Origin: Conger conger | Taxonomy: Eukaryota | NCBI RefSeq assembly: GCF_963514075.1 | Contig: NC_083761.1 | Location: forward strand, 49,925,777-49,989,776 | Direction: 5' to 3' | Length of the DNA stretch: 64,000 nt | In this document: one piece after another, positions 25,434-63,413 of the stretch | How positions within the stretch are numbered: the first letter of the stretch is position 1 | Layout of the letters: the number at the start of each line of letters is the position of its first letter | Translations under genes and position numbers: made by a program | The notes under the pieces: generated by a model | Seen by the model: the letters and a program-made list of their open reading frames with translations, nothing else | What the model was told of the DNA's origin: nothing | The model's database searches: none

Positions 25434-25783
25434 CTAGCTGTGGGACTGGGGGGCTATGCCAGAACAATCGGACACCAGCAGCCCCACCCCGGTGTTCCCG
25501 CTGACAAACACGCTAGGTCCAGACACCATGTTGCCCAGGGAGATGGAGCTGCTGGACGCCGTGGTGGTGGTGATGGGGCTCGGGGTGGTGTGGGGGCTGG
25601 TGTGTGTGCCCATGTGGCCTTGCAGTTGGGTGGGGGTCTTGCAGTGCACCCCGCAGAGTTGACATAACAGGACACCTCCAGGCCCGGTTCCCCCAAATCC
25701 CCCTCTCTGACCCGCACTCTCCTTCCACTCCTGACCGTGGTGCTTCTGTGCGTGGACACGCAGGTATGTAAGAGTAGTAAAGC
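25434..25783 (-). CDS. MAZ: MAZ terminal coding exon encoding (S)FTTLTYLRVHAQKHHG...LLCQLCGVHCKTPTQLQGHMGTH... and ending SHS, with a stop at 25434.
   Basis: Matches human GFTTAAYLRIHAVKDHG...ILCKLCSVHCKTPAQLAGHMQTH. The acceptor is tccccag|GC. ORF is 25434..25808. Confidence 0.8.
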
Positions 25784-26686
25784 CTGGGGAGAAGGAGGGG
25801 AGAGGCACGGTTATACAGCATGCAATGCAGACTCAATGAGAGTGCGTACGGCACACAGGAGGACTAGATGCTATACAGTATACTGAATGAGCAAAGCCAC
25901 ACAGAGGCTCGGAGCTCTCTCGACTCTAGCTCTCTGCTTAAAAATAGGGTAAGCAGTTTAATATTTTGTCGTACAAATATTTATTTTCCTACATGGCTTC
26001 ACACCTGTTCTTCCATGAATGAGGAAACTTGGTTGCGGATTGCAACCAGGGTGGTATCGGCATGGCCATTGGCTAAACCTGGCCAGACAAATATCGGTTA
26101 CTAATGCCAGCGCACAATTTCCATATTCTGCATCCCTAAAAACGGCCTCAATTGCAATGTACAGTAGTAGTAGTGTAACCGGTGTAAAAGCGACATAAAG
26201 TACACACTGTTAATATCTGAACCATGAATTTTCAAGCCTGTTACAGGTGTGTGTAAGTTGCTGAAGTTGTTACATACAAAACATTGCCTGCTATGTACTA
26301 CACAGTTGCCGTTGGTAGAAGTAAACTAGTTTGATGAAACCATGCAGGAAATAAACTGTGGATGTTCATGTTTGACTGCGGGATTATATTGGAAAGAAGT
26401 TACTGATGAATTTTTCTGCACTTTGAAACCACCTTGGTACTAGGTTGAACTAGTGCAAATATTTAGAAAACGCACATTTCAGCAAAACTGTGAGGATGGA
26501 CTGATACTACTCCGGGTAATTAGAAATATACCTTAGAATTAGAAATGTACTTTTTGAGGGAACTGCCCCTTTTAGTTGAATCAGAACTGCTGAGCTAAAA
26601 TAATGTAACTATTATGCAACTCATTTTAAGTGGGCTGAAACAAAAGTGAGTAAATGTTTGAAATAGATGATAGAAATGGAACTCAC

Positions 26687-26858
26687 TGCGGTTGCAGAGG
26701 TGACAGGCATGGTGCTGTGATTGGTTGTGCACCCTCATGTGATCAGTGATGTAGGCTGCAGACAGCAGCTTGCCACAGATGTGACATGGCACTTTCTCCT
26801 CATGGCGGATCATGTGAGCTCGAAGCCGGTCACGTGTAGCAAATGCAGACTCGCACGT
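26687..26858 (-). CDS. MAZ: MAZ exon encoding TCESAFATRDRLRAHMIRHEEKVPCHICGKLLSAAYITDHMRVHNQSQHHACHLCNR.
   Basis: Matches human KCEAAFATKDRLRAHTVRHEEKVPCHVCGKMLSSAYISDHMKVHSQGPHHVCELCNK. The acceptor is gtgtag|ACG and the donor is CGCA|gtgagt. ORF is 26595..26813. Confidence 0.85.
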
Positions 26859-27130
26859 CTACACACAGGGACAAATTAAACGCAATAAAACTTTGACTCA
26901 TTGAACATGTGTCACATACAGTGGGGTGCAAAAATGTGGCCACTCCTGGTTTAAATGTCTGTTACAATTAATCCGTATGCGATCAAAAGCAAACCTGTGT
27001 GTGAAAAAAATCAAAAGTAATTTCATGTGTATACCAGCAGTTTTAAATATATTTAATTAAAAAATAAAAATCTAAATAAATATGGATGAAATCATATATA
27101 TCTTTATTTGTTATTTTATTCTGGAATTAC

Positions 27131-27194
27131 CTCACATTTGAAGGGTCTCTCCTTTGAATGGACCTGTCTTACATGACTGTTCAGATGATCAGGC
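27131..27194 (-). CDS. MAZ: MAZ 64-nt micro-exon encoding (R)PDHLNSHVRQVHSKERPFKCE.
   Basis: Matches human PDHLNSHVRQVHSTERPFKCE exactly apart from T->K. The acceptor is ttttcag|G and the donor is GAG|gtaatt. It restores the frame between the flanking exons. Confidence 0.8.
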
Positions 27195-27346
27195 CTGAAA
27201 AGCAAGGTTCAAACAATGCAAAATCACATCACCAACGATCGCAAGCAACAAGGGGGATTCTGCAGGGATCAGTTCTCTGCTACAAATGAAGCAAGGGCAT
27301 ATGATCTCTCAGTATGTGCAGTCCTGCAGCCTTGCCCTGTTCTCAC

Positions 27347-27594
27347 CGTGAGAAGCCCTTGGCACAGTGGGGGCAGACGTAGGGTTTCTCTACGCCTCCT
27401 TGGTGGGAGCGCACGTGGTAGCTCATGCGGTCCTTCCGCTTGAAGCGCTGCTGGCAGATGGGGCAGGAGTAAGGCTTCTCATCCGAGTGGGACAGCCGGT
27501 GTCTGTTGAGGTGGTACACGTCCCGGAAGGCCTTCCCACAGGCCTCACACGCGTGGTTCTTACGCACCGGGTTTGGGCTGGGGTTAGCTGCACG
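27347..27594 (-). CDS. MAZ: MAZ exon with zinc fingers 2-4 (RKNHACEACGKAFRDVYHLNRHRLSHSDEKPYSCPICQQRFKRKDRMSYHVRSHQGGVEKPYVCPHCAKGFSR).
   Basis: Near-identical to human KNHACEMCGKAFRDVYHLNRHKLSHSDEKPYQCPVCQQRFKRKDRMSYHVRSHDGAVHKPYNCSHCGKSFSR. ORF is 27343..27567. The donor is CG|gtgaga. Confidence 0.9.
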
Positions 27595-28099
27595 CTGCTA
27601 AGAGAGAGAACATTTACTGGCTTTGGATCTCATGAATGAGCGAGGTGGCGGTGTCACTGACTCAAACAAAGGGCCACAAGCGGCGGGAAGAACAGGATGG
27701 AAAGGAACACTGGCATGGCAAGAGGAGTGGGGAAATTTGGGAAGGGAGAGAGAACAGCGAGTCATGGTGTGAAAAATTGGTTGGCTGGTTGGTTATGGAG
27801 GAGGTCAATAGAGCTTTTGCACCTTAAAAGTTATTTCCTGCATTCTAGGACATTAAAACCACCCAAAAAAAGCGTTCCAGCAATAAGGGCTAAGAACCAG
27901 AAATGGTTTAAGCCAATGATGAAAGTAATTTTCTCTGAACATATAGCCTAATAAAAAGTACTACCAAATACAAATATATACAAAATTATTGGAACAGCAA
28001 AGTCAATTCCTTTTTGCTATACAGTGAAGACAATTGAGTTTGATGTCCAAATTGCAGCTTTTATTTCCTGGTATTTTTTAAACAAGATTTGTTCAACAA

Positions 28100-29160
28100 C
28101 TTGGAACATCATCTTTTGTATCAAACCACCCAATGTTTAGGTGAGCTAAAGTCTTGGAACATTGACTGAGGTGTTTCTTGTTGCCCAGATGTGCCTTGGA
28201 TTTTTTCTGTGAAGACTGCATTTGTGTTAGAAAAGATAAACCAACAGAGAGCTGTCTTTGGGTGAAAAGCAAGCCATTTTGAAGAGGGGAAATCGATCAG
28301 ACCCATTGCACAAGCATTGAAAAAGAAAGAAACCGCTGGTGTACTCAGCAACAGAAATCAAACAGGTTGACCAAAAAAAACAACAGCAGTTGATGACAGG
28401 AACATTGTGAGAGCTGTGAAGAAAAACCCCAAAACATCAGTCTGTTACATCACAAACAGGATTGAAGGTACCTCAATCAACCATTCGAAGAAGACTTGGA
28501 GAGTAGTAATATAGAGGCTATACCGCAAGATGCAAACCACTCATCAGTAGTAAGAATCGGAAGGCGAGATTACAATTTGCAATGAAGTACAGAGATAAGC
28601 CACAAAAGTTCTGGAACAACGTTTCATGGACTGATGAAACCAAAATTAACCTGATGGAAAGGCCAAAGTGGAGAAAGAAGGGATCTGCTCATCTGTGAAG
28701 CACGGTGGAGTCATGGCTTGGGCTTGCATGGCTGCTTCTCGAGTGTGCTCAATAATCTTTATTGATGATGTAAGTCATGATTGTAAGTCTACAAAAACAT
28801 TCTGTCTGCAAACTTAGAGAGAAATGCGTCCAAGCTAATTGGGAGGAACTTCATTATGCAGCAAGAAAATGACCCAAAACACACTGCCAACACAACAAAA
28901 GACTTCATTAGGGAGAAAAAGTGGAAGGTTTTAGACTGGCCAAGTCAATCACCAGACCTTAACCCAATTGAGCATGCATTTCACCTCCTTAAGAGGAGAT
29001 TAAAGGGAAAACCCACCCAAAACAAACAACAACTAAAAGAGGCTGCAGTAAAAGCCTGGAAAAGCATCACAAAAGAAGAATGCAAGTTTGGTGATGTCAA
29101 TGGGTCACAGGCTTGATGCAGTTATTGCAAGGAAGGGATATGCTACCAACTATTGAGTGT
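28100..29160 (+). mobile_element. Tc1-like transposon fragment with a degraded transposase, inside a MAZ intron.
   Basis: ORF 28856..29116 is [49 protein letters not shown], the Tc1 DDE C-terminal signature. Upstream frames give the WTDETKINL and HGGGSIMAW-like region with stops. Confidence 0.7.
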
Positions 29161-29349
29161 CATTTACTTTCATTTACTTAAATACTCTCTGTTCCAAAAC
29201 TTTTTCTCACCTTCAATTTGGGAGGTCTAATACCAAAGGTGCTATGTATGAAGCAGTTCAACACATCTCGGTGTAAATAACAGTAAATAAAAGCTGAAAT
29301 TCTGAACTCTTGTCTCTTTTTATCTCAACCCCAAATGTATTCAGTGTAT

Positions 29350-30840
29350 TGCAAAAAAAAGGAATTGGCCTTGCTGTTACAATACTTTGAGGGGACTGTA
29401 TATCATTCCTCTTTAAACCTAATAAAGACCCAACTCTATGCTCAAGCTACCACCCATTATCGCTCATTAACACGGGTATTGAAATTATCAGTAAGGCACT
29501 GCCCATGAGATTAGAAACAGTCCTCCCTTCTATAATACACCCTGATCAGGGTGTATTAAAGGCAGATATTCATCAAGGAACATGCGCTGCCTATTCAATC
29601 TACTCAGTATAACCAATAGATATCTTGTCAATAGATGCTGAAAAAGCATCTGACCGGGTTAATTGGACATTTTTACTTTCCATATTAGAAAGATTTGGTT
29701 TTGGGGAGTCATTTATTCAATTAATTAAAATTCTGTACAACTCGCCAACAGCATCAATAACCACAAATGGTATAATTTCACAACGTTTTACACTTCACAG
29801 GGATACAAGACATCCTTGTCCACTCTCACCCCTATTATTTGCCCTATTTATTGAACCCTAGCAACTGCCAAGACACCAAACCCACTGGTATCACCACCCT
29901 GAACACAACCCATAAGGTCAGCCTATATGCAGAAGACCTATTACTATATACACAAAATCCTGTAACATCACTTCCAGCTATTTTTGTTTTGGACATTTTC
30001 TACCATCCCTGAATATTCAACTGGTCAAAATCCATTATTCTCCCAGTTAACCAGGACCAGTGGAATGCTGTGAACCCCAATCTCTCACTTAACATCCCTA
30101 CAGGTAACATTTGGTATCTCGGCATTGATATGTCCTCCAACCTTTTAGAGTTGTTTGAACTGAACTTCATGCCAAGTCTAAAGACCAGAGGAAATCATTT
30201 AAACTGTTGGAATAACTTATCACTCTCACTTGCTGGCTGCATAGCTGTAGTGAAAACGTCAATCCTACCAAGAATCCTACCATCTTTTTTCTCCCATCCT
30301 TCCAATATCTAATTTAATCTAAAAGAAAATTACTGGAAAAATAAACAACCAATAAAACTCTCAATACTTAAAGCAAGCTGCCTGGTGGCTTAAATGCCCC
30401 AAACTCTTTTCATTACTACTTAGCTCATCAGTTACAGTACATAATGAAATGGATATATTCAGACAAGACCCTTGGCTCTAAATTGAACAGTCAGTATGTG
30501 AAAAACTCTCCATTAAAGACCTACTATTCTTGTCCCAATCAATCAAAAAACATAATTGCTATAAGACCATCGCCATTTCAACAACTCTGGAAGCTTGGTG
30601 AAAAATCAGTAAGATCACTTAATTTCTTAATCAATAAGACCACCTTCATATTTAACTCATGGAAAAGTAAAGGAATTACCCACATACAACACCTATTTGA
30701 AAATGATGGATTCTTAACCATCCAAAGAACTATGATATCACCCAAGAAAACGTACAGTATCTCCCACTTAAGAACACACTTAAAAATAAAATACAACTTT
30801 CCAACAATAATCTGCAACCACCGCCATTAATAGAAAACAT
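29350..30840 (+). mobile_element. L1-like non-LTR retrotransposon fragment (RT and ORF2 C-terminal region).
   Basis: ORF 29625..29861 is IDAEKASDRVNW..., with RHPCPLSPLLFALFIEP corresponding to L1 RT motifs (IDAEKAFD; GTRQGCPLSPLLF). ORF 30444..30830 continues with a further L1 ORF2-like sequence. Confidence 0.6.
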
Positions 30841-30867
30841 AGCATCCATTCCAACATTAAAGAAACC

Positions 30868-31099
30868 TAAGCTGTGGGGTGGCCTGTAGCGTAGTGGTTA
30901 AGGTAAATTACTGGGACACCCAAGGTTGGTGGTTCCAATCCCGGTGTAGCCACAATAAGATCCGCACAGCCGTTGGGCCCTTGAGCAAGGCCCTTAACCC
31001 TGCATTGCTCTAGGGGAGGATTGTCTCCTGCTTAGTCTAATCAACTGTATGTCGCTCTGGATAAGAGCGTCTGCCAAATGCCAATAATGTAATGTAATA
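30868..31099 (+). mobile_element. Complete tRNA-derived SINE with a LINE-shared 3' tail (HpaI/SmaI-like family).
   Basis: The tRNA-like head (ggcctgtagcgtagtggttaaggt ... ggttccaatcccgg) has A/B boxes. The tail is gtcgctctggataagagcgtctgccaaatgcc(aatgt)n. The same tail is found at 3781-3850 (the LINE), 14040-14160 and 15700-15760. Confidence 0.75.
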
Positions 31100-31269
31100 A
31101 GCTATCTAAACTATAAAAACTCATATCACCAAAATAAAAACAAAAACAAATACCTACTCAATGTCGAAAAACTCCCGATTACAGCTAATTCAGTATAAGA
31201 CTATGCACAGAACACACATCACCAATTGCAGAATGCACCTCATGGGCTTCACCAATACAGATATCTGTC

Positions 31270-31450
31270 CACAATAATAAATGGTTGCCATTTATATAGT
31301 ACCTTTATCCGAAGCGCTATGCAATTTATGCTTCTCATTCACCCATTCACACACACTCACACACCAACAGTAATTGGATGCCATGCAAGGCACCAAACAG
31401 CTCGTCAGGAGAAATTGGGGTTAGGTCTCTTGCTCAGGGACAATGCATCC
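31270..31450 (-). mobile_element. Partial copy of the second tRNA-derived SINE family (tail ...cgctttggataaaggcgctatataaatgccaacc...).
   Basis: Homologous to the complete copies at 42785-43047 and 62287-62560 (minus sense) and to the 3' half at 44455-44652 (plus sense). Confidence 0.65.
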
Positions 31451-32269
31451 TCAACACAATAGATTGTTATTATCACTCTTTTTGGTAATGTACACCAACC
31501 CAAAATGTCTGGCAAACTGTAAGAGTTGAACTCTCCAAATTTCTGGGTCACAACATTCCATTGTCCCCATCTCTTTGCCTTCTAGGAGACCACACACCCA
31601 TCAGTCATCTTCACAAATATCACAAACTCATACATACCTTGACCATAGCCAAAAAACAATACTCATGAACTGGAAATACAGGCATAAACTTGCAATGGCT
31701 TAATTTGGTAATAGACTATCTCTCAATGGAATGAATCACAGCTGAATATAATAAACAATCCAAAGAATTCAGTGATACCTGGGAACCTCCTCATAAATCT
31801 GAACCCCCCCCCCCCCCCCCGGCATTCCTTTCTTTCCTTCTTTTTTTGTTATCCATTACCACCATGCATCTGCTTTATAATTATTATGATTTTTGTATTA
31901 TTTGTTATTAGTTATCACTTATTATTCACAATTATTACCAATATTATTATTGATAATGATTATTATTACTGTTACTGTTATTATTTGTTATTAGTAATAT
32001 TACTCTCACCATTAATGATTATCATTGTAACTTATTACAATTAATTATCATTATTATTATGATTGACGATTATTATTACTTCTGAACTGCCATACAATGG
32101 TTCTGAGGCGGTCTGAGGCAAGATGTTTCTGTATACTGCGGCATTCATCCTGCTGCTGCTATCGGCACCAGTAAACACCAGTGAAGTGAGCCAGTTCCAG
32201 TGGCAGCCATACAAGCCCAAGCTATAAAACTAGGTAGTGGTAAGCTTTGAATCATGAGCTGTTTTTTTC

Positions 32270-32560
32270 CTCCACTTTCCTCTTTCCGTCACTCTGGTAC
32301 AGGTTGATCTTTGTCTCATCATTCCATAACACTACAGGTTCCACAACTCTATAGGTTTTTTAATGTCCATTCTATTCTTGAGGTTTGCCAGGGTTTTACA
32401 TCTTGTGGTGAACCTAGGTTATGCTAGTGTAGTCTTCTCTTTATGGTTGTCTTTGACACATCTATGCCTACATCCTGGAGAGTGTTAATGATCTGTTGAA
32501 TGTTGAACAGTTACCATGGGGTTTCAAGGATTCTTCAGTCATACACTACGGTTCTATTTC
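32270..32560. mobile_element. Tc1 family-B internal fragment.
   Basis: Homologous to 7261-7700 and 17990-18180. Confidence 0.5.
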
Positions 32561-33364
32561 ACACCGAATTCGTGATCTAAAAGAATACAATTTGCAAATC
32601 GCAAAGGCTGCGATTTTTTATTATATAAATTAGTGTTTAGACTATTAAATTACGTTGCATGGTTTGCCTCAGGACGCTTCTGAACATCATGAACTCAGTT
32701 TGACAGGCAAGGGCAAGCTGGATACTTATCAGCAAAGGCTGCATGATGTGTCTCAAAGTGCCTCTTGAGAGGTGTGCCTTCTCAGCGTTAAATAAGCATT
32801 TTTAATAGCTACCAAACGTTACTAGAAGCACTTATAAAATAATTTATAACCATTTATCTTTGGCTTGTGTTTAAAAGTCGGCTATTAGTAGCGGACTGAT
32901 CCTGCGTTGGTTTTGATTTTGAGTGAACTTATCATTGAGACATGGGAAATAAGTTCATAAAACGTAGCGTTGCTAAAATAATTTGCAAAGACACAAGAGA
33001 AAAGTGTAATTTAGTCTCACTTTGAAAAAATAAAAGCACTCAACAGTGACCGTCTGATGTCGTAGTAGCCGCGCTATGATGCCCCCTTAAGGAACTTGAA
33101 ATTGTCCACTCTCTACTACCCATCATGTGGTGCTTTTCTGTGATCTTATGTTCTTATAGCCACAGTATTGTGTGGCAAAACTGTACTTTCATGTTGCTAA
33201 AATGTTTAGAGAAGGCTTTAAGTTATCAAAAGATTTTAATGTGAACCTTTGATTTTTCCAATTCAAAAGTGAACTGAAGATTTATTTTTAATCAATGTTT
33301 ACATATCAGTTCATATTGCAATCACAATATTGCTTTGAAAAATCGCAAGTCATTTTCCCAATTT

Positions 33365-33826
33365 GTTCAGCCCTATCACACACTACACTTCCGTGGTCTA
33401 CTAGGTAATTTGCCATTGTTGAGCTCACCAGTGCATTCTTGCTTCTTATCAATATACCAAACAGTTGATTTTGACATACCTATTTTTTTGGCAATGTCTC
33501 TGATTTATTTATTCTGATTTTTCAGCCTTATGATGGCCTGCTTTACTGGCATTGACACATCTTTGGTCCTCATGTTGAGAGACAACAGACTCCCAAATGA
33601 AAATGGCACTCCTAGAATCAACTCTAGCTTTTTAATGCATGAACTAATGATGAAAAAAACCTGCTACAATTTCTACACTGTTCACCCAATATAGATGCAA
33701 CTCTCAAATGAGCTAAAAGCCTGCACTCTAATTCCATAGCCATTGCTGTATGTGTACTTGCTGGAGTACAGAGCCAAAACGCCAAAAAAATGTGTCACTG
33801 TCCAAATGCTTACAGACTGCACTGTA
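33365..33826. mobile_element. Tc1 family-B 3' half.
   Basis: Ends with ...gtccaaatgcttacagactgcactgta, the family-B TIR. Its internal region is homologous to 18100-18240 and 49600-49750. Confidence 0.6.
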
Positions 33827-34153
33827 CCTGTGAAATGTGAATATAAACCGTACCTGAGGCACTTCATCAACACAAGAGCATTACATTTGTTATAACATTG
33901 AAACTGAAATCATGCCCATGTATTCAGCAACGGTGCAGTGCAATTTGTGTGTGTTCTTTTTGTTTTTTATTTTTTACCTCTCGCCTTATTGTCTCTGCAG
34001 GGTTTGTGCTGAAGGAAGATTGCAGAATGTTGTGTTCTTGAGTGCACACAGCACCAATAAAGCACATTAAATGGAAACATTAATGAAGCATAATTGCTTC
34101 TTAAGCAGCTGGGTTTGGATTTACATTTTGACATCTGAAAAGTGAAAACGCAC

Positions 34154-34542
34154 CTGTACCGTTGCCCCAGCGATTACTACAGCAGCAGGAGGAGGAGGTG
34201 GGCCAGCCATGGTAACATTAGCTGTGGTGACTGACATGGCAACCACTTCACCTTCTTGATTTCCTAGAGCAGATGGATGAGGAACTGACATGGCAGGAGG
34301 GGGAAGAGGAGGAGGAACAGAGAGATGGAGTAAGGAGAGAGGTACAGTCTGTCTCTCCACTCGTCCGACTGCTGCTGCCGCTCCTTCCTTCATTCCTGCC
34401 TCCCTCTCTCTGGCAGCTTTGTCCTTCATACGGATTCCTGTGTGGACTGACTGGTGGCGCCGCAGGTTGTAGCTGTTCTTGAACTGCTTGTTACAAAGGG
34501 GGCAGATATGGGCAGCTCGAGCAGGCCGAGACACTGGCTTTG
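34154..34542 (-). CDS. MAZ: MAZ exon carrying the first C2H2 zinc finger (HICPLCNKQFKNSYNLRRHQSVHTG) and a Pro/Ala-rich linker.
   Basis: Matches human YICALCAKEFKNGYNLRRHEAIHTG followed by ...MVPLSLLSVPQL. ORF is 34121..34534. The acceptor is ctcag|CA and the donor is ACAG|gtgcgt. Confidence 0.85.
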
Positions 34543-34705
34543 CTGAGCGAGAAAAAGAGGGATACAGAGATAGAGATTTTATGTGGTTTACCCTGAGAAA
34601 TAACTGCTCTATGGATTATATTGTTAAAGGCAATTACTATGCTATGCAATTTCACTCTGCAGTGTCTTCCACCACACTCTCTCCATTAAGCCCTGCCCCG
34701 CTCAC

Positions 34706-34856
34706 CTGGTAAAGGTTCCTCATTCAGAGCAGCAGTGTCCACTGTGGAAGGAGGTGGGGCTATGTGCTCTGTGGGTGGATTCTGGGCAGAGCCTGTGAGC
34801 ACTGGGAGGAGGTCTGATTGGAGAGTCGCTTCCACTTGGGTTTGAGTGGGCGTATT
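34706..34856 (-). CDS. MAZ: MAZ exon encoding NTPTQTQVEATLQSDLLPVLTGSAQNPPTEHIAPPPSTVDTAALNEEPLP.
   Basis: Contains the MAZ N-terminal motifs (LQVDLLPVLAAAQE ... STVDTAALKQPP in human). The acceptor is ttctcag|AAT and the donor is CCAG|gtgagc. Confidence 0.7.
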
Positions 34857-35224
34857 CTGAGAAACAACAAAGGAGGTGGAACTGTCACCAGAGATGCTTA
34901 GAAACCTTGCTACCAAAAAAATAAAAAAATAATAAAAAAACGAAGACAAGTCAAAATTAAAAACAGTCACTCTGACCACACCTGCTGTAGCAACTGTGCT
35001 TTTCACTCCAAGTATGTTCTGGTACATAACTGCAACTTGGTCCTTTAGCTAAGTATTGAAATCACGAAGTTATGAGTTATACTGATGACAAAGTTCTCAT
35101 TTGACAATAAGCAGTGAAAGGGTAAATGAACGGCGCTGTCCTGGGAGGGGGGAAGGGGATGACCACTAGGCTTACGAACTGTACAGTCTAAATCTAAGAC
35201 ATACTCACAGTGTCAGTAACTTAC

Positions 35225-35257
35225 CTGAAACAGAAAATTACTCCAAGCAGCATCCAT
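35225..35257 (-). CDS. MAZ: Candidate MAZ first coding exon, with ATG at 35257-35255, encoding MDAAWSNFLFQ.
   Basis: An ATG followed by an open frame and a strong donor CAG|gtaagt. It joins in frame to the next exon (NTPTQTQVEATLQ...). No strong homology is visible for this short N-terminus. Confidence 0.4.
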
Positions 35258-35519
35258 TTTGAACCACAACGTTGAAGAAAATAATCGTCCTTATAAAACT
35301 ATTTATACAATGAACAATATCAGCAAAGCCGATATATCCTACTTAACTAATGGTATATAGCCAACAGATCTTAATGAAATCGAGATTGATGATAATCGCC
35401 CTGTTCAAAATGACCTAACTTAAGTTAACGTTAGCTTGCTATCTTATGGCGGTAGCTATAGAGCAGATACTAATATATATGTAATTTGCAATAAATTCTG
35501 TTTCATCAAAATGCACGTA

Positions 35520-51077: not shown

Positions 51078-51362
<285 letters not shown>

Positions 51363-54300: not shown

Positions 54301-54482
54301 ACGATAAGTATACTGGAAGCTAGACCAAACTAGCGCACTGCAGCTTATGATCTGGTCACAGCCTGCAAATCTACCAAGATATTACAGCAAAGTTATGGCC
54401 TGTGACAATAAAAGGCCCTGTTCACTTCACTATGAACAAAATGTGCTGAAATGAACAATCAATCCGGCAGATTCAAAAATCA

Positions 54483-55470
54483 ATTAGGCACACGCATACA
54501 GGGCGGTCCGTAAGTATTCGGACGGATTTCTGTTCTTTTGGCTCTGTACTACAGCTGTAGTACGGAGTACTACTACTATTGGGTTTGAAATGACAGAACA
54601 CTGTCACCATTAATTTGAGGGTATTTACCTCCATAACGTATGATCCGTGTCGGAACTACATCCCTTTGTACACATAGTCTGCCCATTTTCTCAGCTGTTT
54701 CTGATTGTATTCAATCACTTCCTTTGTGTAGGAATAATAAAGCTTTCAGTATCTATTCTTGATTCAGGGCTTTTGATTGCCTTTGGAGCCTGTTATTGGT
54801 GTCTATCAACAGGAGTACCAGAGTTGTGCCAATGTAAGTGAAGGAAGCCATTCTGAAAACTACAGTAAGAAACATAGGCCTAGTAATAGGCTTGCTGAAA
54901 CAAGCTATTTGGAATATCATTAAGAAGAGAGAGCACTGGTGCATGTTTGGGATCATTGCCTTGCTGTGGGATGAAGCACCATCCAATGAATTTGGAGAGA
55001 TTCAATTGGACAGAATTAAGAATTAATTCTGATGCAGCTATCAGCAGTTACATTATCAATGAGGACAAGTGAGCCAGCACATCTGTGGCAGCCAGACATG
55101 CCCAAACACCCAAACCACCATGTTTCACAGATGACAGGGGGTGCTTGGTTCTTGGGCAGTTCCTTTAACCCTCCACACTTTGCTCTTGGCATCACTCTGA
55201 TACAAGTCAACCATAGTCTACTCGGTCTACTTTTTTTCAGGACTCAGCAGACACAAAGGCAATCAAAGGACTAGAATGAAGGCTAGACACTGAAAGCTTT
55301 CTTATACCTGTGCTGTCCAATTACTTTTGGTCCCTTAAAATGGGCAAATCCTACACAGATCACCCAATAAAGGCATAAATACCCTCAGATTAATGGTGAC
55401 AGTCTGCACTCTAACCTCATATTCATTGAACAGAAATTGTACCACTGTCCAAATACTCACGGTCTGCACT
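54483..55470. mobile_element. Non-autonomous Tc1 family-B element (~1 kb) in a TAOK2 intron.
   Basis: Termini tacagggcggtccgtaagtattcggacgg ... tgtccaaatactcacggtctgcactgtata. Its interior is homologous to 753-1933 (e.g. catcattgccttgctgtggga(a/t)ga(t/a)gcaccatccaatga). Confidence 0.7.
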
Positions 55471-58043
55471 GTATAACAGTTAAACGTTTCCTTTGATGCT
55501 TAGTAAAAAATGAGTGATTATAACAAGGAGGCATAAAGAGGGGGGGCAATACACACTGAAGACACTGTGGTGATCAGGCTATACACATTGTTCGGAGTAA
55601 ATTCACATTTTAACTGGAATACATATTAACTAAAACTATAACAATAAAAATAATATTCCCAAACCACCAATCTGATTCTACCCAGTGCTTAACCCTACAC
55701 TATATGATGCAGATAAAGGACTGCAATCCATTTGACGCTCCCGAACTTCAGAGTCTTCTGAATGAACTGACAGAGAATTAAATTCCAATTAAGGTGGTAA
55801 CCTGTCTGACAAGAAATTTCAAGTCTTTGAATTGTTAAATCCGTCATGTATAGAATTTGGCAGCTGTAATATCTGGGCTGGGAGTAGTCTGGTTCTTTGT
55901 CAACTGCATCAGCACTGCACCGTTAATAAGGATGCATACCCTGTAGTGTCAATATTACAATATGTTATGGGTATGTAATTTCCTGTGCCAATGACAAGCC
56001 TTCATAACTGACAACCACATTAAAAGTCAATTGATATCATGAGGAGAAAAAACCTCAAGGCCTCTTCATGAGATAAAATCACATTTAACATCCACCATTA
56101 CACCATCATGGCATTATCAGTAACCATACATACAACATGCTTCTTTTAGAATAACAAAATAAACTGGAAACAATATACACTTTTACAAAAAGCAGAATAT
56201 GGATGGACGCTGGAACTACACTGAGCTACAGACAATGGGGAGAAGAGAGAACATTGTATGAGTACATGTTCAATCTCACATACAACATACCGGTAACACA
56301 GAGGAGGCACAAAACATCTTTTTACCCCCTCCCCCCCTCCCAAATTGGAAAGCCCAATAACCCCAATGACTGGGTCCCCGATATAAATTCAGGAGAGTGC
56401 AGTCAAGCCCAAGCTCCCCTCTGAGAGAGGAGTTGGAGGAAGGCACTTTGTGAACAGCTTCACAGGTGGACTCACAGGCACCCAACTGAACAGCAGGAGA
56501 AAGCTGAGACTCGGATCCCCGCTGACTTAATTGGCCCTAACCCCTGGGGTGCTACCAGGATGTGGCCCCAGACCATAGACTACAATGAGAATGGCACCTT
56601 AACTGGATAAGCCACCCCAAAACTTCTCTTCAAGGTAATCATTGCACTCAACCCGATTCTGTTTATGGAGCTTGATTAACAATCCAACAACTGGAAGCAG
56701 AACCAATACCAAAAGATAAGATTACACATCTTATGTAATGCATATTCACAGAAATTGGCCAAATACAAAGCACTATTGCCCAAAGGTTTAACCTACAGAT
56801 ACAGTGAGCAGCATAATTCACTGGACAATGACACATTTATTATTTTGGTTCTGTACTCTGTCATTGTCAAGGATACAATGACAATGAGGAGTGTGGACTG
56901 TTAGCTTTAATTTGGGGGTATTTTCAGCCATATCAGATGAACAGTTTAGAAATGGTCCCCAAATTTTAAGTTAAGTATATGTTGAATTGGCTTCACAGAT
57001 GTGTTTCATGCAGGCAGGTATATTCATTTGTGTCATTAGTAAATGCAGAAGAAAGCTGTTGATGTCTAGTCTTGATTCTAGACTTACAATTGCCTTTGGA
57101 GATTGTTGGGAGTGTGACAATATGAGGAAGACCGCAGTCAATTCAAATTAAGCTGGCCGTCATATGGCTCAGAAATCAATCAATAAATCAGGAACATTGC
57201 AAGAATCCTGGGCATGCCCAAATAAATCAACCGTTTGGTTCATTATTAACAAGAAAAAAAACAACTGGTGAACTCAATTAAGTCAAAAGACCCAGTTGAC
57301 AGAAAAAGACCACTGTAGTGGATGACCCGAGGATACTCTCTATGGTGACAATGGCCTAACAGATCAAAAATCCTCCTGGATGCAGGTGTGTTAAAGTCTA
57401 CCATACATGGAAAACTACACCAGCAGGACTACAGAGGGTACACACTACAAGATGCAAACCACTGAAAAGCCTGAGGAACAGAAAGAGTTATGAATAGCTA
57501 TGTATATATGGTTTTATAATTTCTAAATGGTTAATATGATATGGATGAAAATACCCTGAAATTGAAGCCTACAGTCCCCTTCTGTGTCACTGTCCAATGA
57601 ATTATGGTGCTCACAGTATATAGAAATGCGGCACAGATTTATAATGTAAAGAGCAGTAATGCCGTTGCAACATAATATTGGTATCATCCTAGTGATTTGT
57701 ACTGGTTATTCAGTGAATTAGTTGGATAACAAAACAGATTGTTAATCAAAGACAGTTAATAAGAATATGTTGAGAGTTACGACTGATTTTAAGTTAAGGT
57801 CAGTGCCTCTTCGGTTTCCAGCTCACAAACTACCACTGACACATACAGAACGACATATAGACTTTCAAAATAACATTCATATTCAGTCGAAAAGATGGAC
57901 CTTTTGGGGTTGATGCTGGATCCAACAACAGTGAATCATGATTTAAGAATGAGACAAAAGTGCACGTCACACACATGCATATGCGTACAGACGGACAACG
58001 AAAGAAACGTTTGCAATCACACTCGCACAAACCTCTCTTAATA

Positions 58044-59720
58044 CTATCTCCAGGGAACCACCTTTCCTCTCACGCTTCTCCCTGAAGCTGTTCGTCTCAA
58101 CCCACACTCCCACCTACCCCCATCTCGAAACAACCTGTCCCTCTCCTCCCTCCTCCTCCTCTCCCTCTCTCTTTGCCTCCTCTGCCTCTCTCTCCGTTCC
58201 CGCACCTCACGAGGCAACAGTCTGGGTAACCTGCTGGCTCGCTCTTCTCTCAACAAACCAAAGGTTCTCAGCTTAGCCAAGTAGCCCTGCGGCAGTTCTC
58301 TGAGGACCCGGCTGGCCAGCTTCAGCACTACAGAGTTTGCCCAGTCAGCGAGGACCCCTATCGGGCGCCTAAGAAAACGCCTGACCCAAAGCGTACATCG
58401 AGAAGCCAGAGAGCCTCGATTTTGCCTGGAGTGATACTCCATGGGGAGGGTCCTGAGGGGGACAGGGATTTGGGATTGGCGTACCCCCCAATTCCTGCCT
58501 GCTTTCGGGAACATGTCATACAAACTCCTCTCAGCAAGACCGCCCAGAAGCGACTGACAAACCGTGAATAAGGGCTTGGGGAGTCGGAACAGAAATCTGA
58601 CCCAGAGGCGGTTGAGTTTCTTTGGGGCTTTCTGAAGGAAAACCCGGGCGGGGCGGACCACCAGAACCACGAGGAGGTAGAGGGAGAGGAAAAGGGAGGG
58701 CGAGCTGAGGAAAGAGGCCGAGACCAGAGTCACGGGGATGTAATAGAGGCCCAGGCTTAGCGAAAGACCCAGGCTGAAGAGACCACAGCCCCAAAGAGCC
58801 AGGGACAGGTAGAGGGTAAGGGAGATGGAGCAGCAGGACCGCAGGAAGAGGTAGGAGAAGAAAAGGGCAAGGAGCGCGAGCTCTCCAGACAGGAGGAGCG
58901 AGGAAAGGGAGGGGAGCGGAGGAGAGCGGCGGAGGGAGAGCAGGAAGACGGAGAGGAGGATGAGCACGGGGAGGGAGGGGCGGGCGGCGGCGGAGAGGGA
59001 CAGCAGGAGGCAGATGCAGTGGGAGAGCAGGGAGGAGAGGGAGAGCTGGCCGGGCTGGGGAGGGGGAGGGGCGGGGAGGGGAGGGGGCTCCAAATCTAAA
59101 GAGTCGGAGAAGTAGAACTCGGAGAGCTCGTCGGCCTCCCGCTTCCTCCTCCGCTCGGCACTCCTCCCCTGCTCCACGGAGAGAGACATCAGCTCCGAGG
59201 GACAGCCGTCCCCCACGCCCCGGCCTTCCTCCTCATCGACGTCCGACTCCGTTTCAGTCTCGCTCCCTTCTTCGTCCTCCCATTCCTCTCCCTCCAGCAA
59301 CATCTCGCCACTCCCTGCCCCTCCGCCTCTCCACTGCTCCTCAGCCACCGTGGCCTCCTCTGTCTCCTGCTCTCCGGGGCTCAAACTCTCCCCCTCTCTC
59401 CCCCTCTCTGTGCCGGCGCCATCGGTGGGCCGGCTCTCCTCCCAGCATTCCTCCGCCTCCCGCGTTTCAGTCTCTGCTATCCCCTCCTCTTCCCCGTTCC
59501 TTCCCTCCCCGCCCCGGTCTTCTCCTCTCTCCGCGTCCCTCGGCCCGGACGCCCCCGGGGCCTCCGAGTCCTCCCTCGAAGCGCTACCGTCCTCTCCTCC
59601 GCCCTCCTCCCCCTCCGCCCCGCCTCCCGGGGCGAGGGGCCCTCCCTCCTCCCTCCCGGCCACTCCGTCGGGCTGGTCCCCCTCCCCGGGCCCCTCCTGC
59701 CGCTGCTCAGTCTCACTCAC
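58044..59720 (-). CDS. TAOK2: TAOK2 long-isoform (alpha-type) terminal exon extension. It reads through the 59721 donor and encodes an acidic Gly/Glu-rich region, a long Leu-rich hydrophobic segment and a basic Arg-rich tail ending ...VVPWR, with a stop codon at 58044-58046.
   Basis: A 624-aa uninterrupted ORF (58044..59918) is continuous with the preceding exon. Its architecture and several motifs parallel the human TAOK2 isoform-1 C-terminus: [10 protein letters not shown] vs [18 protein letters not shown] vs RIPRLLPR, and the terminal PWR. Confidence 0.6.
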
Positions 59721-59960
59721 TTTGAGGCTCTTGGGCTGCTGGCGCACCTCCACGGCGTGCTTCTGGCGCAGCTCCTGCTCGCGCCGCTTGTTGTACTCCA
59801 GCTGGTTGGTGAGCTCGGTCTGGTGCTGCGTGCGGATCAGGTCGGCCCGCGTGCGCTGCACCGAGGCCAGCTGCCGGAACTCTAGCTCCTGCGTGGATTC
59901 GTGGTGCCGCAGCAGCATGGCGCACTCCAGGTCCTTCTGCGTCTGCTTCTTATTCAGGTC
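59721..59960 (-). CDS. TAOK2: TAOK2 exon encoding [80 protein letters not shown]. Its donor is used by the short beta-type isoform.
   Basis: Matches human [80 protein letters not shown]. The acceptor is ccccag|GAC and the donor is CTCAAA|gtgagtgag. Length is 240 nt. Confidence 0.85.
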
Positions 59961-60423
59961 CTGGGGGAGGGCGGGGGCATTGGGTCAGACACAGACTCTG
60001 CTTCCACGAAGAAAAGGAACCGACAGTCGCAAAGAGAAACAAGCCCTGAAACAGCACCCCCTTGAGCTGTCGTCGGACAATACTTTACTTGATGCCTGAT
60101 GTTCATAGTAACAATGCAGTTAAAATAAGCTTTAAACAGATAGATGGTAGACTAACTTGAAGTAGTCAGTGCAAGTTCACTATGGTAGCCAAGATGTGCA
60201 TTGTAGACGGTTGCTGCCAACGCTGCAGGTCAAACCGAGACTGACCTAAGTTATAATGGCTTCATTGATGCCTTGTGGCAAACACATAATACTACAGTGT
60301 GACAAACCAACGTGAATCCATAGTCCTCCCCCTAAGGGAAGTTTTTCAACCAGTAACTGCACTGGGAGACATACAAAGGCAGATGTTCAACCAGCGCCCT
60401 CTACAAGAGGGACGCAGCAGAGA

Positions 60424-60516
60424 GTAACCGCAGTGGGAGACAGACAGGCACGCAGGCAGGCATGCAGGCAGGCAGGCAGGCACGCAGGCAGGCAGGCAGG
60501 CAGGCAGGCAGGCACG

Positions 60517-60548
<32 letters not shown>

Positions 60549-60705
60549 CACGCAGGCACGCAGGCACGCAGGCACGCAGGCACGCAGAGCAACCGCACTG
60601 GGAGACACAGGCATAGTAACCGCACTGGGAGACACAGGCAGAGTAACCGCACTGGGAGACACACACAGGCAGAGTAACCGCACTGGGAGACACAGGCAGG
60701 CAGAC
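60424..60705. repeat. Compound minisatellite inside a TAOK2 intron, made of (GCAGGCAG)n with GCACGCAG variants followed by four copies of a ~31-bp unit gagtaaccgcactgggagacacaggca.
   Basis: Tandem periodicity is visible directly. It generates repeat-driven ORFs on both strands (60433..60807+, 60401..60664-). Confidence 0.85.
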
Positions 60706-60728
60706 GCAGAGCCGGGCCGCAGCGGTAC

Positions 60729-60932
60729 CTCTCTCAGCAGGTCCTGCTCCAGGTTGTGTCGCGCCAGCAGCATCTTCCTCTTGTACTGCCTGCACTGCAG
60801 CTCGTAGTACTGCCTCTGCCTGCGCAAGAGCCCGGCCTCCTCCTCCGCCTGCATCTGCTGCAGACACTCTTTCTGCCGCACCAGCCACTCCTGCTTCTCC
60901 CGCTTAGGGGTGGACTGGTTCTCGTTCAGCTC
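60729..60932 (-). CDS. TAOK2: TAOK2 exon encoding [68 protein letters not shown].
   Basis: Near-identical to human [68 protein letters not shown]. The acceptor is cgcgcag|GAG and the donor is GAG|gtaccg. Length is 204 nt. Confidence 0.85.
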
Positions 60933-61697
60933 CTGCGCGCGGGGGGAAGAGTTAAAGCAGCGCGCGGGGGGAAGAGTTAAAGCAGAGCACCGAGGCCAGG
61001 CTTCCCCGCAGAGCCGCTTGCGTGCGTGTAACAAAGCACCGCTCAAACGCACAAACACAGATCAGTGCATTTACTGCTCTTAGAGCAGGGAACCCAGAGC
61101 TGTGAGAGAAACCGGGCAGGGAAAAAATGAAATAAAAGCGGATAAGTCACTGGCAACATTATCTTTGATCAGGGAAAGTTTATGCTGCTGCAGCAAGCTA
61201 GCTTATTAGCGAGCCTGATTTTCATTCCAAAGACTGCCTTACAGCTTGCTCGCTGGGTAGTGAACATCGATTGTGAAACGGCCGCCTAGGAAGCAAGCTT
61301 AACGTCATGCAAACGAGGAAACAGGAGAGCTAGTAACTAAGTTAACTAAATTTAGGTCAAATGCCTACCAACTTTACTTCAAGAATGTTAACAATGTCCC
61401 CAATTAAATATTCCTACGAAGATTCTACACTTCTTGGACAAGACTGACAGATTTCACCTGGCTGAAAAAACAAATGTAAGGTAATGGTGAAGTGAATGCA
61501 GGCAGGCAATATAAAAAATACTATTGTTTAAGAGTATATTAAGAGTAAAATTAAATCAGGCACATTTTCCTGAAAAAAAAAAAAGACAGAACAGAGTGAT
61601 GACACGGGGCTCCATTGGAACGCAGCACGGTTAAACGAGCAGGAACGGAACGGGAGCGAAGGCGTTTTTAGCCAGGCTGCTTTTGGGTTTGTGGTAC

Positions 61698-61826
61698 CTC
61701 CTTGAGCTGCTCCTTGCGCTGGCGGTACTGGCGCTTCTGGGACTCCAGCAGGCTGGAGAGCTCCTTCTTCTGCTGGCTCAGGATGTGCTGCTGGAACTTC
61801 TTCTCCTCAGTCGACGCCGCCTTCGT
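61698..61826 (-). CDS. TAOK2: TAOK2 exon encoding [43 protein letters not shown].
   Basis: Matches human [43 protein letters not shown]. The acceptor is ctgcag|ACG and the donor is GAG|gtacca. Length is 129 nt, phase 0. Confidence 0.8.
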
Positions 61827-62286
61827 CTGCAGACGAGCACACAAACGGGGAGAGAGAGGAGCAGGACGGTCACTCCTGTGATCTGATCCACCGACACGGC
61901 TCAGGTGAGCGGCGAGCGAGTCCACTGTAAACTAGCTCATTCCCAGGGGATCGCTCCCTGCACCTTATTCAGGTTCAGAACGGAAAGGTCCCTACCCAGC
62001 ATTCTGTCCAATCACCTGACTTTGCCAATTAGCAAAATTCTTCAGCCAAGCAGGAGACAAAACTAATAGGTCAAATCAAGTTCATGACAGGGCTGGGTAT
62101 CGTGTAAAAAATAATTCTAGTCCAATACCAACACCTTGACTTTAATTCAAGTTTTTTTCCCCCCATGATACTTTACATATACAATTAAGAAAGGTATTGA
62201 GTTACAAGTCAAATACCTCTTTAAAAAAACTTGGGCATATTCATAAATTCAGTGTTCTCTGTTAGTTACTGCAGTAACTTGATGCG

Positions 62287-62560
62287 ATAAAGCGTAAGTA
62301 AATGGTAAATGGTTGGCATCTATATAGCGCCTTTATCCAAAGCACTGTACAATTGATGCTTCTCTTTCACCCATTCATACACACACTCACACATCAACAG
62401 CGATTGGCTGCCATGCAAGGCACTGACCAGCTCGTCAGGAGCAAATGGGGGTTAGGTGTCTGACACTTCGACACAGCCCGGGTGGGGGATCGAACCGGCA
62501 ACCCTCCGACTGCCAGACGACTGCTCTTACTGCCTGAGCCATGTCGCCCCCCAATTACAG
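62287..62560 (-). mobile_element. Complete copy of the second tRNA-SINE family in a TAOK2 intron.
   Basis: Same structure as 42785-43047. Begins gtaaatggtaaatggttggcatctatatagcgcctttatccaaagcactgtacaattgatgc... and ends ...gactgctcttactgcctgagccatgtcgcccccc. Confidence 0.75.
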
Positions 62561-63176
62561 CATCAGCGTAGCAAACAGTAACGTTACAGGCTAGCCAACG
62601 TTATGTTAGCTACCTGCTAAAGACCCAGTCTTGTATTTGAAAAGCTGAGAGGACTCTGCAGGCTGCGGTCCAGTCTTCTTGCAGTCAAACGGTGCAGCTC
62701 TCTGCTCTTAAATCTATGCTGTGCACAGTCAAATGCTTCAATGAATTTGATGAGCTGTCAGTATTTACAGCGCTTCCCTTCGCATATATATTGCAACATG
62801 TGTAACTGGCATCAAATCCGATAAAAAGCGATGCTTTCTCTTTTCAGATACAGAAGAGAGTCCACAGGAGTAACGTTAGTGTTGTTGTCTACAAATGCAA
62901 GTTAGACAGCCAATCACCAAGCTAGGAACAAGCATGCTTAGACAGACAACTTGGGTCACAAATGCTGATGATGAGCTGATCTGCTTCAGTATTACCTTTT
63001 TTTTTTTTTAAACAAAACTTGATACTGCAGAACATCCTGTTTTTTGATACTCAAAGCAATGTGGCATCGACGCAATTTGGTCAGTACCCCTCTGACCCGC
63101 AGCCAATACCACCCAAACGCAAGGTTAACCCTCAACCATGTACCTCAGGGACTCCATTTCCCATGTGTCCTCTCAC

Positions 63177-63413
63177 CTCCTTCTCCAAGATGCCCTGGTG
63201 CTTCTTGCCCTGCTTCTCCCCCTCCCCTCCGAAGCTGTTCCTCTGGGTCTCCAGCTCCTTGTCGAGCCGCAGCTGGTGCTCGTCCATCTCCGCCTTGAGC
63301 TTGTTCTCCAGCGCCATCAGCTGCTTCTGGTGCTGCCGCCGCATGCGCTTGTAGCCTGACATCTGCTCCCGCAGCGCCGAGCCCTGCTCGTGCTCCTGGA
63401 TCTGCCTCGTCAC
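63177..63413 (-). CDS. TAOK2: TAOK2 coiled-coil exon, the most 5' exon in this window. It encodes [62 protein letters not shown]...GILEKE.
   Basis: Peptide matches human TAOK2 around [36 protein letters not shown]. The acceptor is ccccag|GTG and the donor is GAG|gtgaga. Length is 237 nt, in frame with ORF 63132..63563. Confidence 0.8.

What the first reader, a model, noticed from the sequence alone, without database searches (positions are those of the whole stretch)
25434..63413. Compacted teleost counterpart of the human 16p11.2 block, with MAZ, CDIPT and TAOK2 directly adjacent and all on the same strand
The three reconstructed genes occur in the human chromosomal order MAZ ... CDIPT ... 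TAOK2. In human they are separated by PRRT2, PAGR1 and MVP (between MAZ and CDIPT) and by SEZ6L2, ASPHD1, KCTD13 and TMEM219 (between CDIPT and TAOK2). I could find no exons of those genes in the ~3 kb between MAZ and CDIPT or the ~3.3 kb between CDIPT and TAOK2. In human, CDIPT is transcribed opposite to MAZ and TAOK2, whereas here all three are on the minus strand. Either this is a paralogous (teleost genome duplication-derived) copy of the block that has lost the intervening genes, or a rearranged orthologous block. That matters for modelling 16p11.2 genes in fish.
Basis: partly seen in the sequence, partly recalled or inferred. Interest (0 to 1): 0.6.

Follow-up and report, generated by a model that had tools for sequence, protein, structure and literature searches.

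The report
Ancient fish TAOK2–CDIPT–MAZ gene trio
This stretch of European conger eel DNA carries three genes (TAOK2, CDIPT, MAZ) packed head-to-tail; the packing is real, but it is an ordinary gene arrangement shared by bowfin and many teleosts that predates the teleost genome duplication, not a copy that lost its in-between genes.

Summary
On the minus strand the window carries the 3' half of TAOK2 (63413-47172), all of CDIPT (43822-38300) and all of MAZ (35257-25437). The coding gaps are 3,346 and 3,039 bp, and I found no exons of PRRT2, MVP or KCTD13 in them. The source is Conger conger: the CDIPT and MAZ proteins match deposited Conger proteins at 100%.

The same TAOK2->CDIPT->MAZ tandem, all on one strand, is present in Anguilla, a cyprinid, medaka and bowfin (Amia). 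Bowfin split off before the teleost genome duplication, so the option "duplicated copy that lost the intervening genes" is refuted. The window is the copy that kept CDIPT. A second copy exists: in Danio aesculapii TAOK2' sits next to MAZ' with no CDIPT, and in Anguilla MAZ' has different neighbours.

Relative to CDIPT, TAOK2 and MAZ lie on the same sides as in human, but both are flipped. That needs at least two inversions with breakpoints flanking CDIPT. Which lineage rearranged is unresolved, because bichir, sturgeon and frog were uninformative.

This is ordinary, already-annotated microsynteny and of low interest.

The parts
47169..63413 (-). TAOK2, 3' half only. Coiled-coil exons lie at 63413-63177, about 61829-61698, 60932-60729 and 59960-59721. 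Beta-type exons lie at 51362-51150, 48300-48118 and 48038-47172, with the stop at 47171-47169. The kinase domain lies beyond the window end.
   Evidence: ORF translations. Canonical AG/GT splice context. The annotated Conger gene here is a 1022-aa product with Pkinase that runs off locus L001. Homologous exons sit upstream of CDIPT in Anguilla, Amia, Oryzias and Sinocyclocheilus.
58044..59960 (-). TAOK2 alpha-type long exon. The GTGAGT donor after 59721 is read through, giving an acidic and leucine-rich extension that ends ...VVPWR with a stop at 58046-58044. GC content is about 63%.
   Evidence: ORF 59984-58047 and the donor context. The named hits to this region are all TAO2: Amia 'TAO2' P0315 on the same contig as Amia CDIPT, 'TAO2-like', and 'TAO kinase 2b'. 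It matches the recalled human TAOK2-alpha C-terminus at E=2e-10 (memory probe). GC.
43823..47168 (.). TAOK2-CDIPT intergenic gap of 3,346 bp between coding sequences.
   Evidence: No Pfam family in ORFs of at least 35 aa. No gene is called here in the Conger, Anguilla, Amia, medaka or cyprinid annotations.
38297..43822 (-). CDIPT, complete. Six coding exons: 43822-43778, 43307-43176, 41976-41824, 41717-41634, 41518-41438 and 38443-38300, plus the stop.
   Evidence: 100% match to P0001 (Conger conger, PF01066) over all 213 residues. The CDP-alcohol phosphotransferase motif DGHAAR-x8-G-x3-D-x3-D is visible in exons 2 and 3.
39742..40648 (+). Tc1/mariner-like transposase remnant inside the last CDIPT intron.
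   Evidence: ORFs at 39742-40074 and 39959-40648 contain ...DNDPKHTAK...[10 protein letters not shown].... The family assignment is from my own knowledge of Tc1 transposases.
35258..38296 (.). CDIPT-MAZ intergenic gap of 3,039 bp between coding sequences.
   Evidence: No Pfam family in ORFs of at least 35 aa. No gene is called here in any of the five annotations.
25434..35257 (-). MAZ, complete. Seven coding exons: 35257-35225, 34856-34707, 34543-34154, 27594-27346, 27193-27131, 26858-26685 and 25781-25437, plus the stop. The 6.5-kb third intron is rich in transposon remnants.
   Evidence: 100% match to RefSeq P0126 'myc-associated zinc finger protein isoform X2 [Conger conger]' over all 468 residues. 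All 120 best hits are MAZ-type proteins.

Best explanation
The window is a piece of a Conger conger chromosome. It carries a tight head-to-tail trio, TAOK2 -> CDIPT -> MAZ in the direction of transcription. This trio is an old, conserved microsyntenic block of neopterygian fishes. It already existed before the teleost whole-genome duplication. After that duplication, one copy kept all three genes; this window is that copy, as are its orthologous loci in Anguilla, a cyprinid and medaka. The other copy lost CDIPT. The human intervening genes (PRRT2, PAGR1, MVP, SEZ6L2, ASPHD1, KCTD13, TMEM219) were therefore not deleted from these gaps after the duplication. They lie elsewhere on the same linkage groups.

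The difference from human comes from small-scale rearrangements since the common ancestor of bony vertebrates. The minimal model, which is my inference, is two inversions that each have one breakpoint next to CDIPT. One inverts the block SEZ6L2..TAOK2 and the other inverts the block MAZ..MVP. Which lineage underwent them is not resolved.

Shown here: gene identities, adjacency, species distribution and the pre-duplication age. Inferred: the two-inversion model and the a/b naming of the copies.
For: Source and gene identity: the CDIPT and MAZ proteins are 100% identical to Conger conger proteins. The window is 99.6% identical to GCA_029692045.1 CM056175.1, at about 34.55 Mb.

Same trio, same strand, no gene called between:
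- Conger
- Anguilla anguilla
- Amia ocellicauda
- Oryzias latipes
- Sinocyclocheilus grahami
Each was verified by tblastn with exon probes from the window. Adjacent locus tags for CDIPT and MAZ in Albula (AGOR_G00093830/840) and Synaphobranchus (SKAU_G00131880/890) agree.

Second ohnolog copy: in Danio aesculapii, TAOK2' 3' exons are followed by MAZ' with no CDIPT hit between them. Its MAZ is only 80% identical to the CDIPT-adjacent MAZ of another cypriniform, so it is a paralog rather than an ortholog. Anguilla's second MAZ lies on another chromosome, flanked by a Kelch-BTB gene and a MAPK-like kinase.

Mammal-type contrast: in the marsupial Dromiciops, CDIPT is followed by a convergent MVP.

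Empty gaps.
Against: The direction of change is unknown. Bichir and frog showed no informative neighbour within 10 kb of CDIPT. Sturgeon's 'CDIPT-like' gene sits beside NUFIP2, which matches neither the fish-type nor the human-type order. The Latimeria look-up failed.

The pure two-inversion model predicts PRRT2 directly downstream of MAZ. Medaka instead has a MAPK-like kinase there, so more events occurred. Blaker-Lee et al. also report that the zebrafish kctd13/sez6l2/asphd1 group has a different internal order from human.

The human gene orientations come from my memory. Only the CDIPT/MVP convergence was checked, in a marsupial.

The flank upstream of TAOK2 could not be examined.
Confidence: 0.85

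Rival explanations
1. Teleost-duplication paralogon with secondary loss. After the teleost genome duplication, one copy of a human-like 16p11.2 block lost PRRT2, PAGR1 and MVP, and SEZ6L2 through TMEM219, which brought the three genes together.
For: Teleosts do carry two copies of TAOK2 and MAZ. Differential gene loss did occur, because CDIPT is missing from the second copy.
Against: Bowfin, which branched off before the duplication, already has the compact trio in the same orientation. Both teleost copies derive from that state, as the Danio second copy is TAOK2'->MAZ'.
Confidence: 0.03
2. A lineage-specific (eel) rearrangement, or an assembly artefact in this window.
For: None beyond the window being a single sequence.
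Against: A second Conger assembly, or haplotype, is collinear with the window at 99.6% identity. The same order is found in Anguilla, a cyprinid, medaka and bowfin, all from independent assemblies.
Confidence: 0.01
3. The fish-type trio is the ancestral state of bony vertebrates, and the human 16p11.2 order is the derived one. On this view, rearrangement in the sarcopterygian or tetrapod lineage placed other genes between the three.
For: The trio has stayed fixed in divergent neopterygian lineages. A MAPK-like kinase, NLK-type by my recall, sits next to MAZ in both teleost copies. From memory, human NLK, NUFIP2 and TAOK1 are linked on 17q11.2. This hints at an old TAOK-NLK linkage that fish kept and the human 16p11.2 region lost. 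Sturgeon CDIPT-like lies next to NUFIP2.
Against: No outgroup data are available. Sturgeon and bichir do not show the trio within 10 kb. A human-type adjacency, CDIPT with a convergent MVP, is present in a marsupial.
Confidence: 0.3
4. The fish-type trio arose on the actinopterygian or neopterygian stem from a human-like ancestral order, through two inversions with breakpoints flanking CDIPT plus later shuffling.
For: Two inversions are enough on paper to convert one order into the other (my inference and the recalled human order). Sturgeon and bichir lack the trio in the 10-kb flanks.
Against: The sturgeon neighbour (NUFIP2) is not human-like either. Large genomes may simply have neighbours more than 10 kb away. 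Medaka has a kinase, not PRRT2, after MAZ.
Confidence: 0.5

Closest known systems
Human 16p11.2 BP4-BP5 core interval (KIF22-MAZ-PRRT2-PAGR1-MVP-CDIPT-SEZ6L2-ASPHD1-KCTD13-TMEM219-TAOK2-HIRIP3...)
   Same: The three genes are orthologues, or co-orthologues, of genes in this interval. TAOK2 lies on the 5' side of CDIPT and MAZ on its 3' side, as in human.
   Different: All three genes are on one strand, so TAOK2 and MAZ are both inverted relative to CDIPT. The seven human genes between them are absent. The trio spans more than 38.6 kb (25434 to the window end, with the 5' part of TAOK2 beyond it), compared with roughly 200 kb in human. The human figures and orientations are from memory.
Zebrafish 16p11.2 homologues as described by Blaker-Lee et al. 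2012 (PMC3484866)
   Same: The homologues cluster on two duplicated chromosomes (3 and 12). taok2 is duplicated and gene order differs from human. The window fits this picture.
   Different: That paper names only kctd13-sez6l2-asphd1 and mapk3-gdpd3-ypel3 as syntenic groups. It does not mention a taok2-cdipt-maz trio. Its position table was not held in the paper library, so I could not check it.
Teleost ohnolog blocks with reciprocal gene loss after the teleost genome duplication
   Same: There are two copies of the block. One keeps TAOK2-CDIPT-MAZ. The other has lost CDIPT, seen in Danio aesculapii.
   Different: The compaction itself is not a product of loss after the duplication. It predates the duplication, as bowfin shows.

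Membership tests
CDIPT (CDP-alcohol phosphatidyltransferase, phosphatidylinositol synthase) | PF01066 domain and the motif D-G-x2-A-R-x8-G-x3-D-x3-D | tested here: met
   The encoded protein is identical to P0001, which carries PF01066. The motif DGHAARALNQATKFGAMLDMLTD is read directly from exons 2 and 3. The best 120 hits are CDIPT proteins across vertebrates.
MAZ (versus VEZF1 / PATZ1) | MAZ-type C2H2 finger array, the conserved N-terminal LQxDLLPVL...STVDTAAL segment and the alternative last exon, with best matches that are MAZ proteins | tested here: met
   100% identical to RefSeq 'myc-associated zinc finger protein isoform X2 [Conger conger]'. 84-95% identity to recalled human MAZ in two finger-region exons and 72% in a third (memory probe). 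A few ostariophysan hits carry the automatic name 'VEZF1-like' but sit among the MAZ hits at the same scores. No gene tree was built.
TAOK2 (versus TAOK1 / TAOK3) | N-terminal STE20-type kinase domain | not testable with these tools
   The kinase exons lie beyond window position 64000. The annotated Conger gene that covers these exons has a Pkinase domain.
TAOK2 (versus TAOK1 / TAOK3) | TAOK2-specific long alternative C-terminal exon (alpha isoform), produced by read-through of a splice donor and ending ...PWR | tested here: met
   ORF 59984-58047 reads through the GTGAGT donor and ends VVPWR. The named hits are TAO2, TAO2-like and TAO kinase 2b. It resembles the recalled human TAOK2-alpha C-terminus at E=2e-10. 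Identity of the coiled-coil exons to human TAOK1 versus TAOK2 is mixed and does not discriminate.
Collinear orthologue of the human 16p11.2 block | Same gene content, order and orientation as in human | tested here: not met
   The seven intervening genes are absent. TAOK2 and MAZ are inverted relative to CDIPT. Only linkage and the side relative to CDIPT are conserved (plus the recalled human orientations).
Compaction by gene loss after the teleost genome duplication | The arrangement is absent from lineages that branched off before the duplication | tested here: not met
   Bowfin has the same trio in the same orientation.
Teleost ohnolog pair (two copies of the block) | A second, paralogous TAOK2/MAZ locus on another chromosome in the same lineage | tested here: met
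   Danio aesculapii has TAOK2'->MAZ' without CDIPT, and its MAZ is 80% identical to the cyprinid CDIPT-adjacent MAZ. Anguilla has a second MAZ on a 33.9-Mb chromosome. Zebrafish taok2a and taok2b lie on chromosomes 3 and 12. The a/b assignment of the window's genes was not tested.

The most novel reading that the evidence does not exclude
TAOK2->CDIPT->MAZ, perhaps followed by an NLK-like kinase, may be the ancestral bony-vertebrate configuration, held together for more than 400 million years by shared regulation or transcriptional coupling. On this reading, the human 16p11.2 core order arose later, by two CDIPT-flanking inversions in the lineage leading to tetrapods, and the CNV interval is a derived mosaic.
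Probability: 0.2. Interest if true: 0.35.

Novelty: already known. Interest (0 to 1): 0.15.

Why it matters
The practical value is small. For fish models of the 16p11.2 CNV, it confirms that the human interval cannot be reproduced by a single contiguous deletion. It also shows that taok2, cdipt and maz are unusually close neighbours in fish, about 3 kb apart on one strand. Lesions or regulatory edits at one of them could therefore affect the others. The pre-duplication age of the trio, and the existence of a second copy without CDIPT, give a clean local example of ohnolog resolution, but not a new principle.

Tried and rejected
- Pfam scan of the gaps using DNA references failed because of stop codons. 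I redid it with concatenated ORFs of at least 35 aa. Exons shorter than that would be missed.
- Outgroup look-ups gave nothing decisive. Latimeria CDIPT was not on record. Bichir and the frog Nanorana showed no informative neighbour within 10 kb. Sturgeon gave an unexpected NUFIP2 neighbour. tblastx among these flanks found nothing shared beyond CDIPT.
- I queried MAZ with the bowfin sequence hoping to retrieve non-teleost MAZ genes for look-ups. All 120 listed hits were teleosts.
- The TAOK2 alpha-exon search returned mostly unnamed short contigs and no full-length TAOK2, so the region upstream of TAOK2 could not be fetched.
- I looked for the kinase that follows MAZ in medaka and Anguilla within window 1-25434. 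There was no tblastx hit. That 25 kb looks like transposon-rich intergenic DNA, but I did not scan it against Pfam.
- The Blaker-Lee supplementary position table is not held in the library. A literature search for taok2b/cdipt/maza together found no paper describing the trio.
- Percent identity to recalled human TAOK1 versus TAOK2 was rejected as a paralog test, because human TAOK2 has diverged and the results are mixed.


Full report
**Source.** A six-exon minus-strand reconstruction of CDIPT is 100% identical to 'hypothetical protein COCON_G00031280 [Conger conger]' (P0001). The corresponding locus of assembly GCA_029692045.1 (CM056175.1, about 34.55 Mb) aligns with window 53898-28287 at 99.6% identity. 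Three UnaL2 LINE 3' elements, an eel LINE family, fit an anguilliform origin. The window is therefore European conger, an early-branching (elopomorph) teleost.

**What is in the window.**
- MAZ: RefSeq MAZ isoform X2 of Conger (P0126, 468 aa) maps residue for residue to seven minus-strand exons from 35257 to 25437.
- CDIPT: P0001 (213 aa) maps to six exons from 43822 to 38300. It contains the CDP-alcohol phosphotransferase motif DGHAAR-x8-G-x3-D-x3-D.
- TAOK2: only the C-terminal half is present. Coiled-coil exons begin at 63413, all with canonical AG/GT borders. A 1.9-kb alpha-type exon reads through the GTGAGT donor at 59721 and ends ...VVPWR. Beta-type exons end at 47172. The kinase domain lies beyond position 64000. 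The annotated Conger gene here is a 1022-aa product with Pkinase that runs off the fetched locus.
- The CDS-to-CDS gaps are 3,346 bp (TAOK2 to CDIPT) and 3,039 bp (CDIPT to MAZ).

**Paralog calls.** All of the 120 best hits to a MAZ query are MAZ-type proteins. For TAOK2, identity of the coiled-coil exons to recalled human TAOK1 versus TAOK2 is mixed and not decisive. The alpha-type extension is decisive. Its only named database matches are TAO2 (Amia, on the same contig as Amia CDIPT), TAO2-like and 'TAO kinase 2b'. It also resembles the recalled human TAOK2-alpha C-terminus. I did not build gene trees.

**Are the gaps empty?** ORFs of at least 35 aa from all six frames of both gaps hit no Pfam family at E<=1. 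Memory-derived probes for human MVP, KCTD13 and the PRRT2 C-terminus hit nothing in the window. The MVP probe did detect MVP in a marsupial locus, so it works. The annotations of Conger, Anguilla, Amia, medaka and Sinocyclocheilus each call no gene between the three.

**How old is the arrangement?** Fetching 10 kb on each side of CDIPT orthologues showed the same picture in Anguilla anguilla, Oryzias latipes, Sinocyclocheilus grahami and the bowfin Amia ocellicauda. In each, the TAOK2 3' exons lie upstream and MAZ downstream, all on the CDIPT strand. I verified each case with exon probes taken from the window. Adjacent locus tags for CDIPT and MAZ in Albula and Synaphobranchus agree. By established knowledge, holosteans diverged before the teleost whole-genome duplication.

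**The second copy.** In Danio aesculapii a MAZ gene lies 6.8 kb downstream of a TAOK-type kinase gene on the same strand, with no CDIPT match between them. Its MAZ is only 80% identical to the CDIPT-adjacent MAZ of another cypriniform. That is too low for an ortholog, so this is the other duplicate block, which lost CDIPT. In Anguilla the second MAZ lies on a different chromosome, between a Kelch-BTB gene and a 475-aa MAPK-like kinase. This agrees with Blaker-Lee et al., who place the zebrafish homologues on chromosomes 3 and 12 and report taok2 in two copies. The window is the copy that kept CDIPT. I expect it corresponds to zebrafish taok2b-cdipt-maza on chromosome 3, but that rests on memory and on chromosome sizes, not on a test.

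**Comparison with human.** From memory, the human order is MAZ(+) PRRT2(+) PAGR1(+) MVP(+) CDIPT(-) SEZ6L2(-) ASPHD1(+) KCTD13(-) TMEM219(+) TAOK2(+). One piece was checked: in the marsupial Dromiciops, CDIPT is followed about 3 kb downstream by a convergent MVP. With CDIPT as the reference, TAOK2 is on its 5' side and MAZ on its 3' side in both fish and human, but both are flipped in fish. Flipping CDIPT alone does not reconcile the two orders. On paper, one inversion of [SEZ6L2..TAOK2] and one of [MAZ..MVP], each with a breakpoint next to CDIPT, convert the human order into TAOK2->CDIPT->MAZ. This is inference. It cannot be the whole story, because medaka has a MAPK-like kinase directly after MAZ rather than PRRT2.

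**Direction of change.** This is unresolved.
- Bichir and a frog had no informative neighbour within 10 kb of CDIPT.
- Sturgeon's 'CDIPT-like' gene abuts NUFIP2.
- The Latimeria look-up failed.
- My look-ups and homolog searches were then exhausted.

**Verdict.** The gene calls are right, with TAOK2 truncated by the window end. The explanation by loss after the duplication is wrong. 'Rearranged relative to human' is right, but the rearrangement is ancient and shared, and it is visible in existing annotations. A literature search found no paper naming this trio. It is nevertheless ordinary conserved microsynteny, so novelty and interest are low.

Noticed in passing
window 14078-14131 (+), 15717-15770 (-), 31034-31087 (+): Three full-length matches to the UnaL2 LINE 3' element (Rfam RF00436, 60-64 bits). 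This is an eel LINE tail, which fits the anguilliform source. One copy lies in the large MAZ intron.
   Followed up: no
window 4238-5935 (-), with 3475-3777 (-) and 5892-6110 (-): A 565-aa reverse-transcriptase-like ORF, apparently a LINE, flanked by fragments resembling Tc1 transposase. It forms a GC-rich island (53% GC, strong GC skew) in otherwise AT-rich DNA. The 25 kb downstream of MAZ looks like transposon-rich intergenic sequence, and I found no gene there.
   Followed up: partly
window 59960-58044 (-): The TAOK2 alpha-type read-through exon is a single 1.9-kb ORF at about 63% GC. In public collections its homologues are often called as stand-alone 540-650-aa 'TAO2-like' proteins with no kinase domain, which looks like a recurrent annotation split. 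Medaka and Sinocyclocheilus have too little room after the equivalent exon for a 1.9-kb extension (78 bp and about 0.7 kb to the next exon), and the alpha-region probe found no match in those loci. The alpha form may therefore have been partitioned to the other duplicate in those lineages.
   Followed up: partly
window 60441-60699: A (CAGGCAGG)n array of about 18 copies, followed by a 27/58-bp tandem repeat, in the TAOK2 intron just after exon 60932-60729. It produces long spurious ORFs on both strands.
   Followed up: no
L004 20952-22052 (medaka) and L010 18412-25351 (Anguilla second MAZ locus): A 475-aa MAPK-like kinase follows MAZ on the same strand in both duplicate blocks. The best solved-structure matches are MAPK4, MAPK6 and MAPK7. 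By my recall the sequence is NLK-type (…QNLVSCKRVFRELRMLCFFKHDNV…). Human NLK lies on 17q11.2 near TAOK1 and NUFIP2 (from memory), which hints at an old TAOK-NLK linkage. No such exons occur in window 1-25434.
   Followed up: partly
L007 1-9810 (sterlet, Acipenser ruthenus): Sturgeon 'CDIPT-like' (219 aa) lies head-to-head with NUFIP2, about 190 bp apart. There is no TAOK2, MAZ or MVP within 10 kb. This matches neither the fish-type nor the human-type neighbourhood.
   Followed up: partly
window 49466-49555 versus L001 4349: The window and GCA_029692045.1 are 99.6% identical, but the alignment breaks at one point where about 89 bp of the window has no counterpart. The window therefore comes from a different individual, haplotype or assembly than that record. 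A second Conger record with an 89.85-Mb chromosome exists.
   Followed up: no
window 50915-50124 (-) and 28856-29861 (+): Reverse-transcriptase and Tc1-like fragments lie inside TAOK2 and MAZ introns. Examples are ...FLDFQKAFDKVPHDKL... and ...QQENDPKHTANTTKDF.... These are ordinary intronic transposon debris.
   Followed up: no
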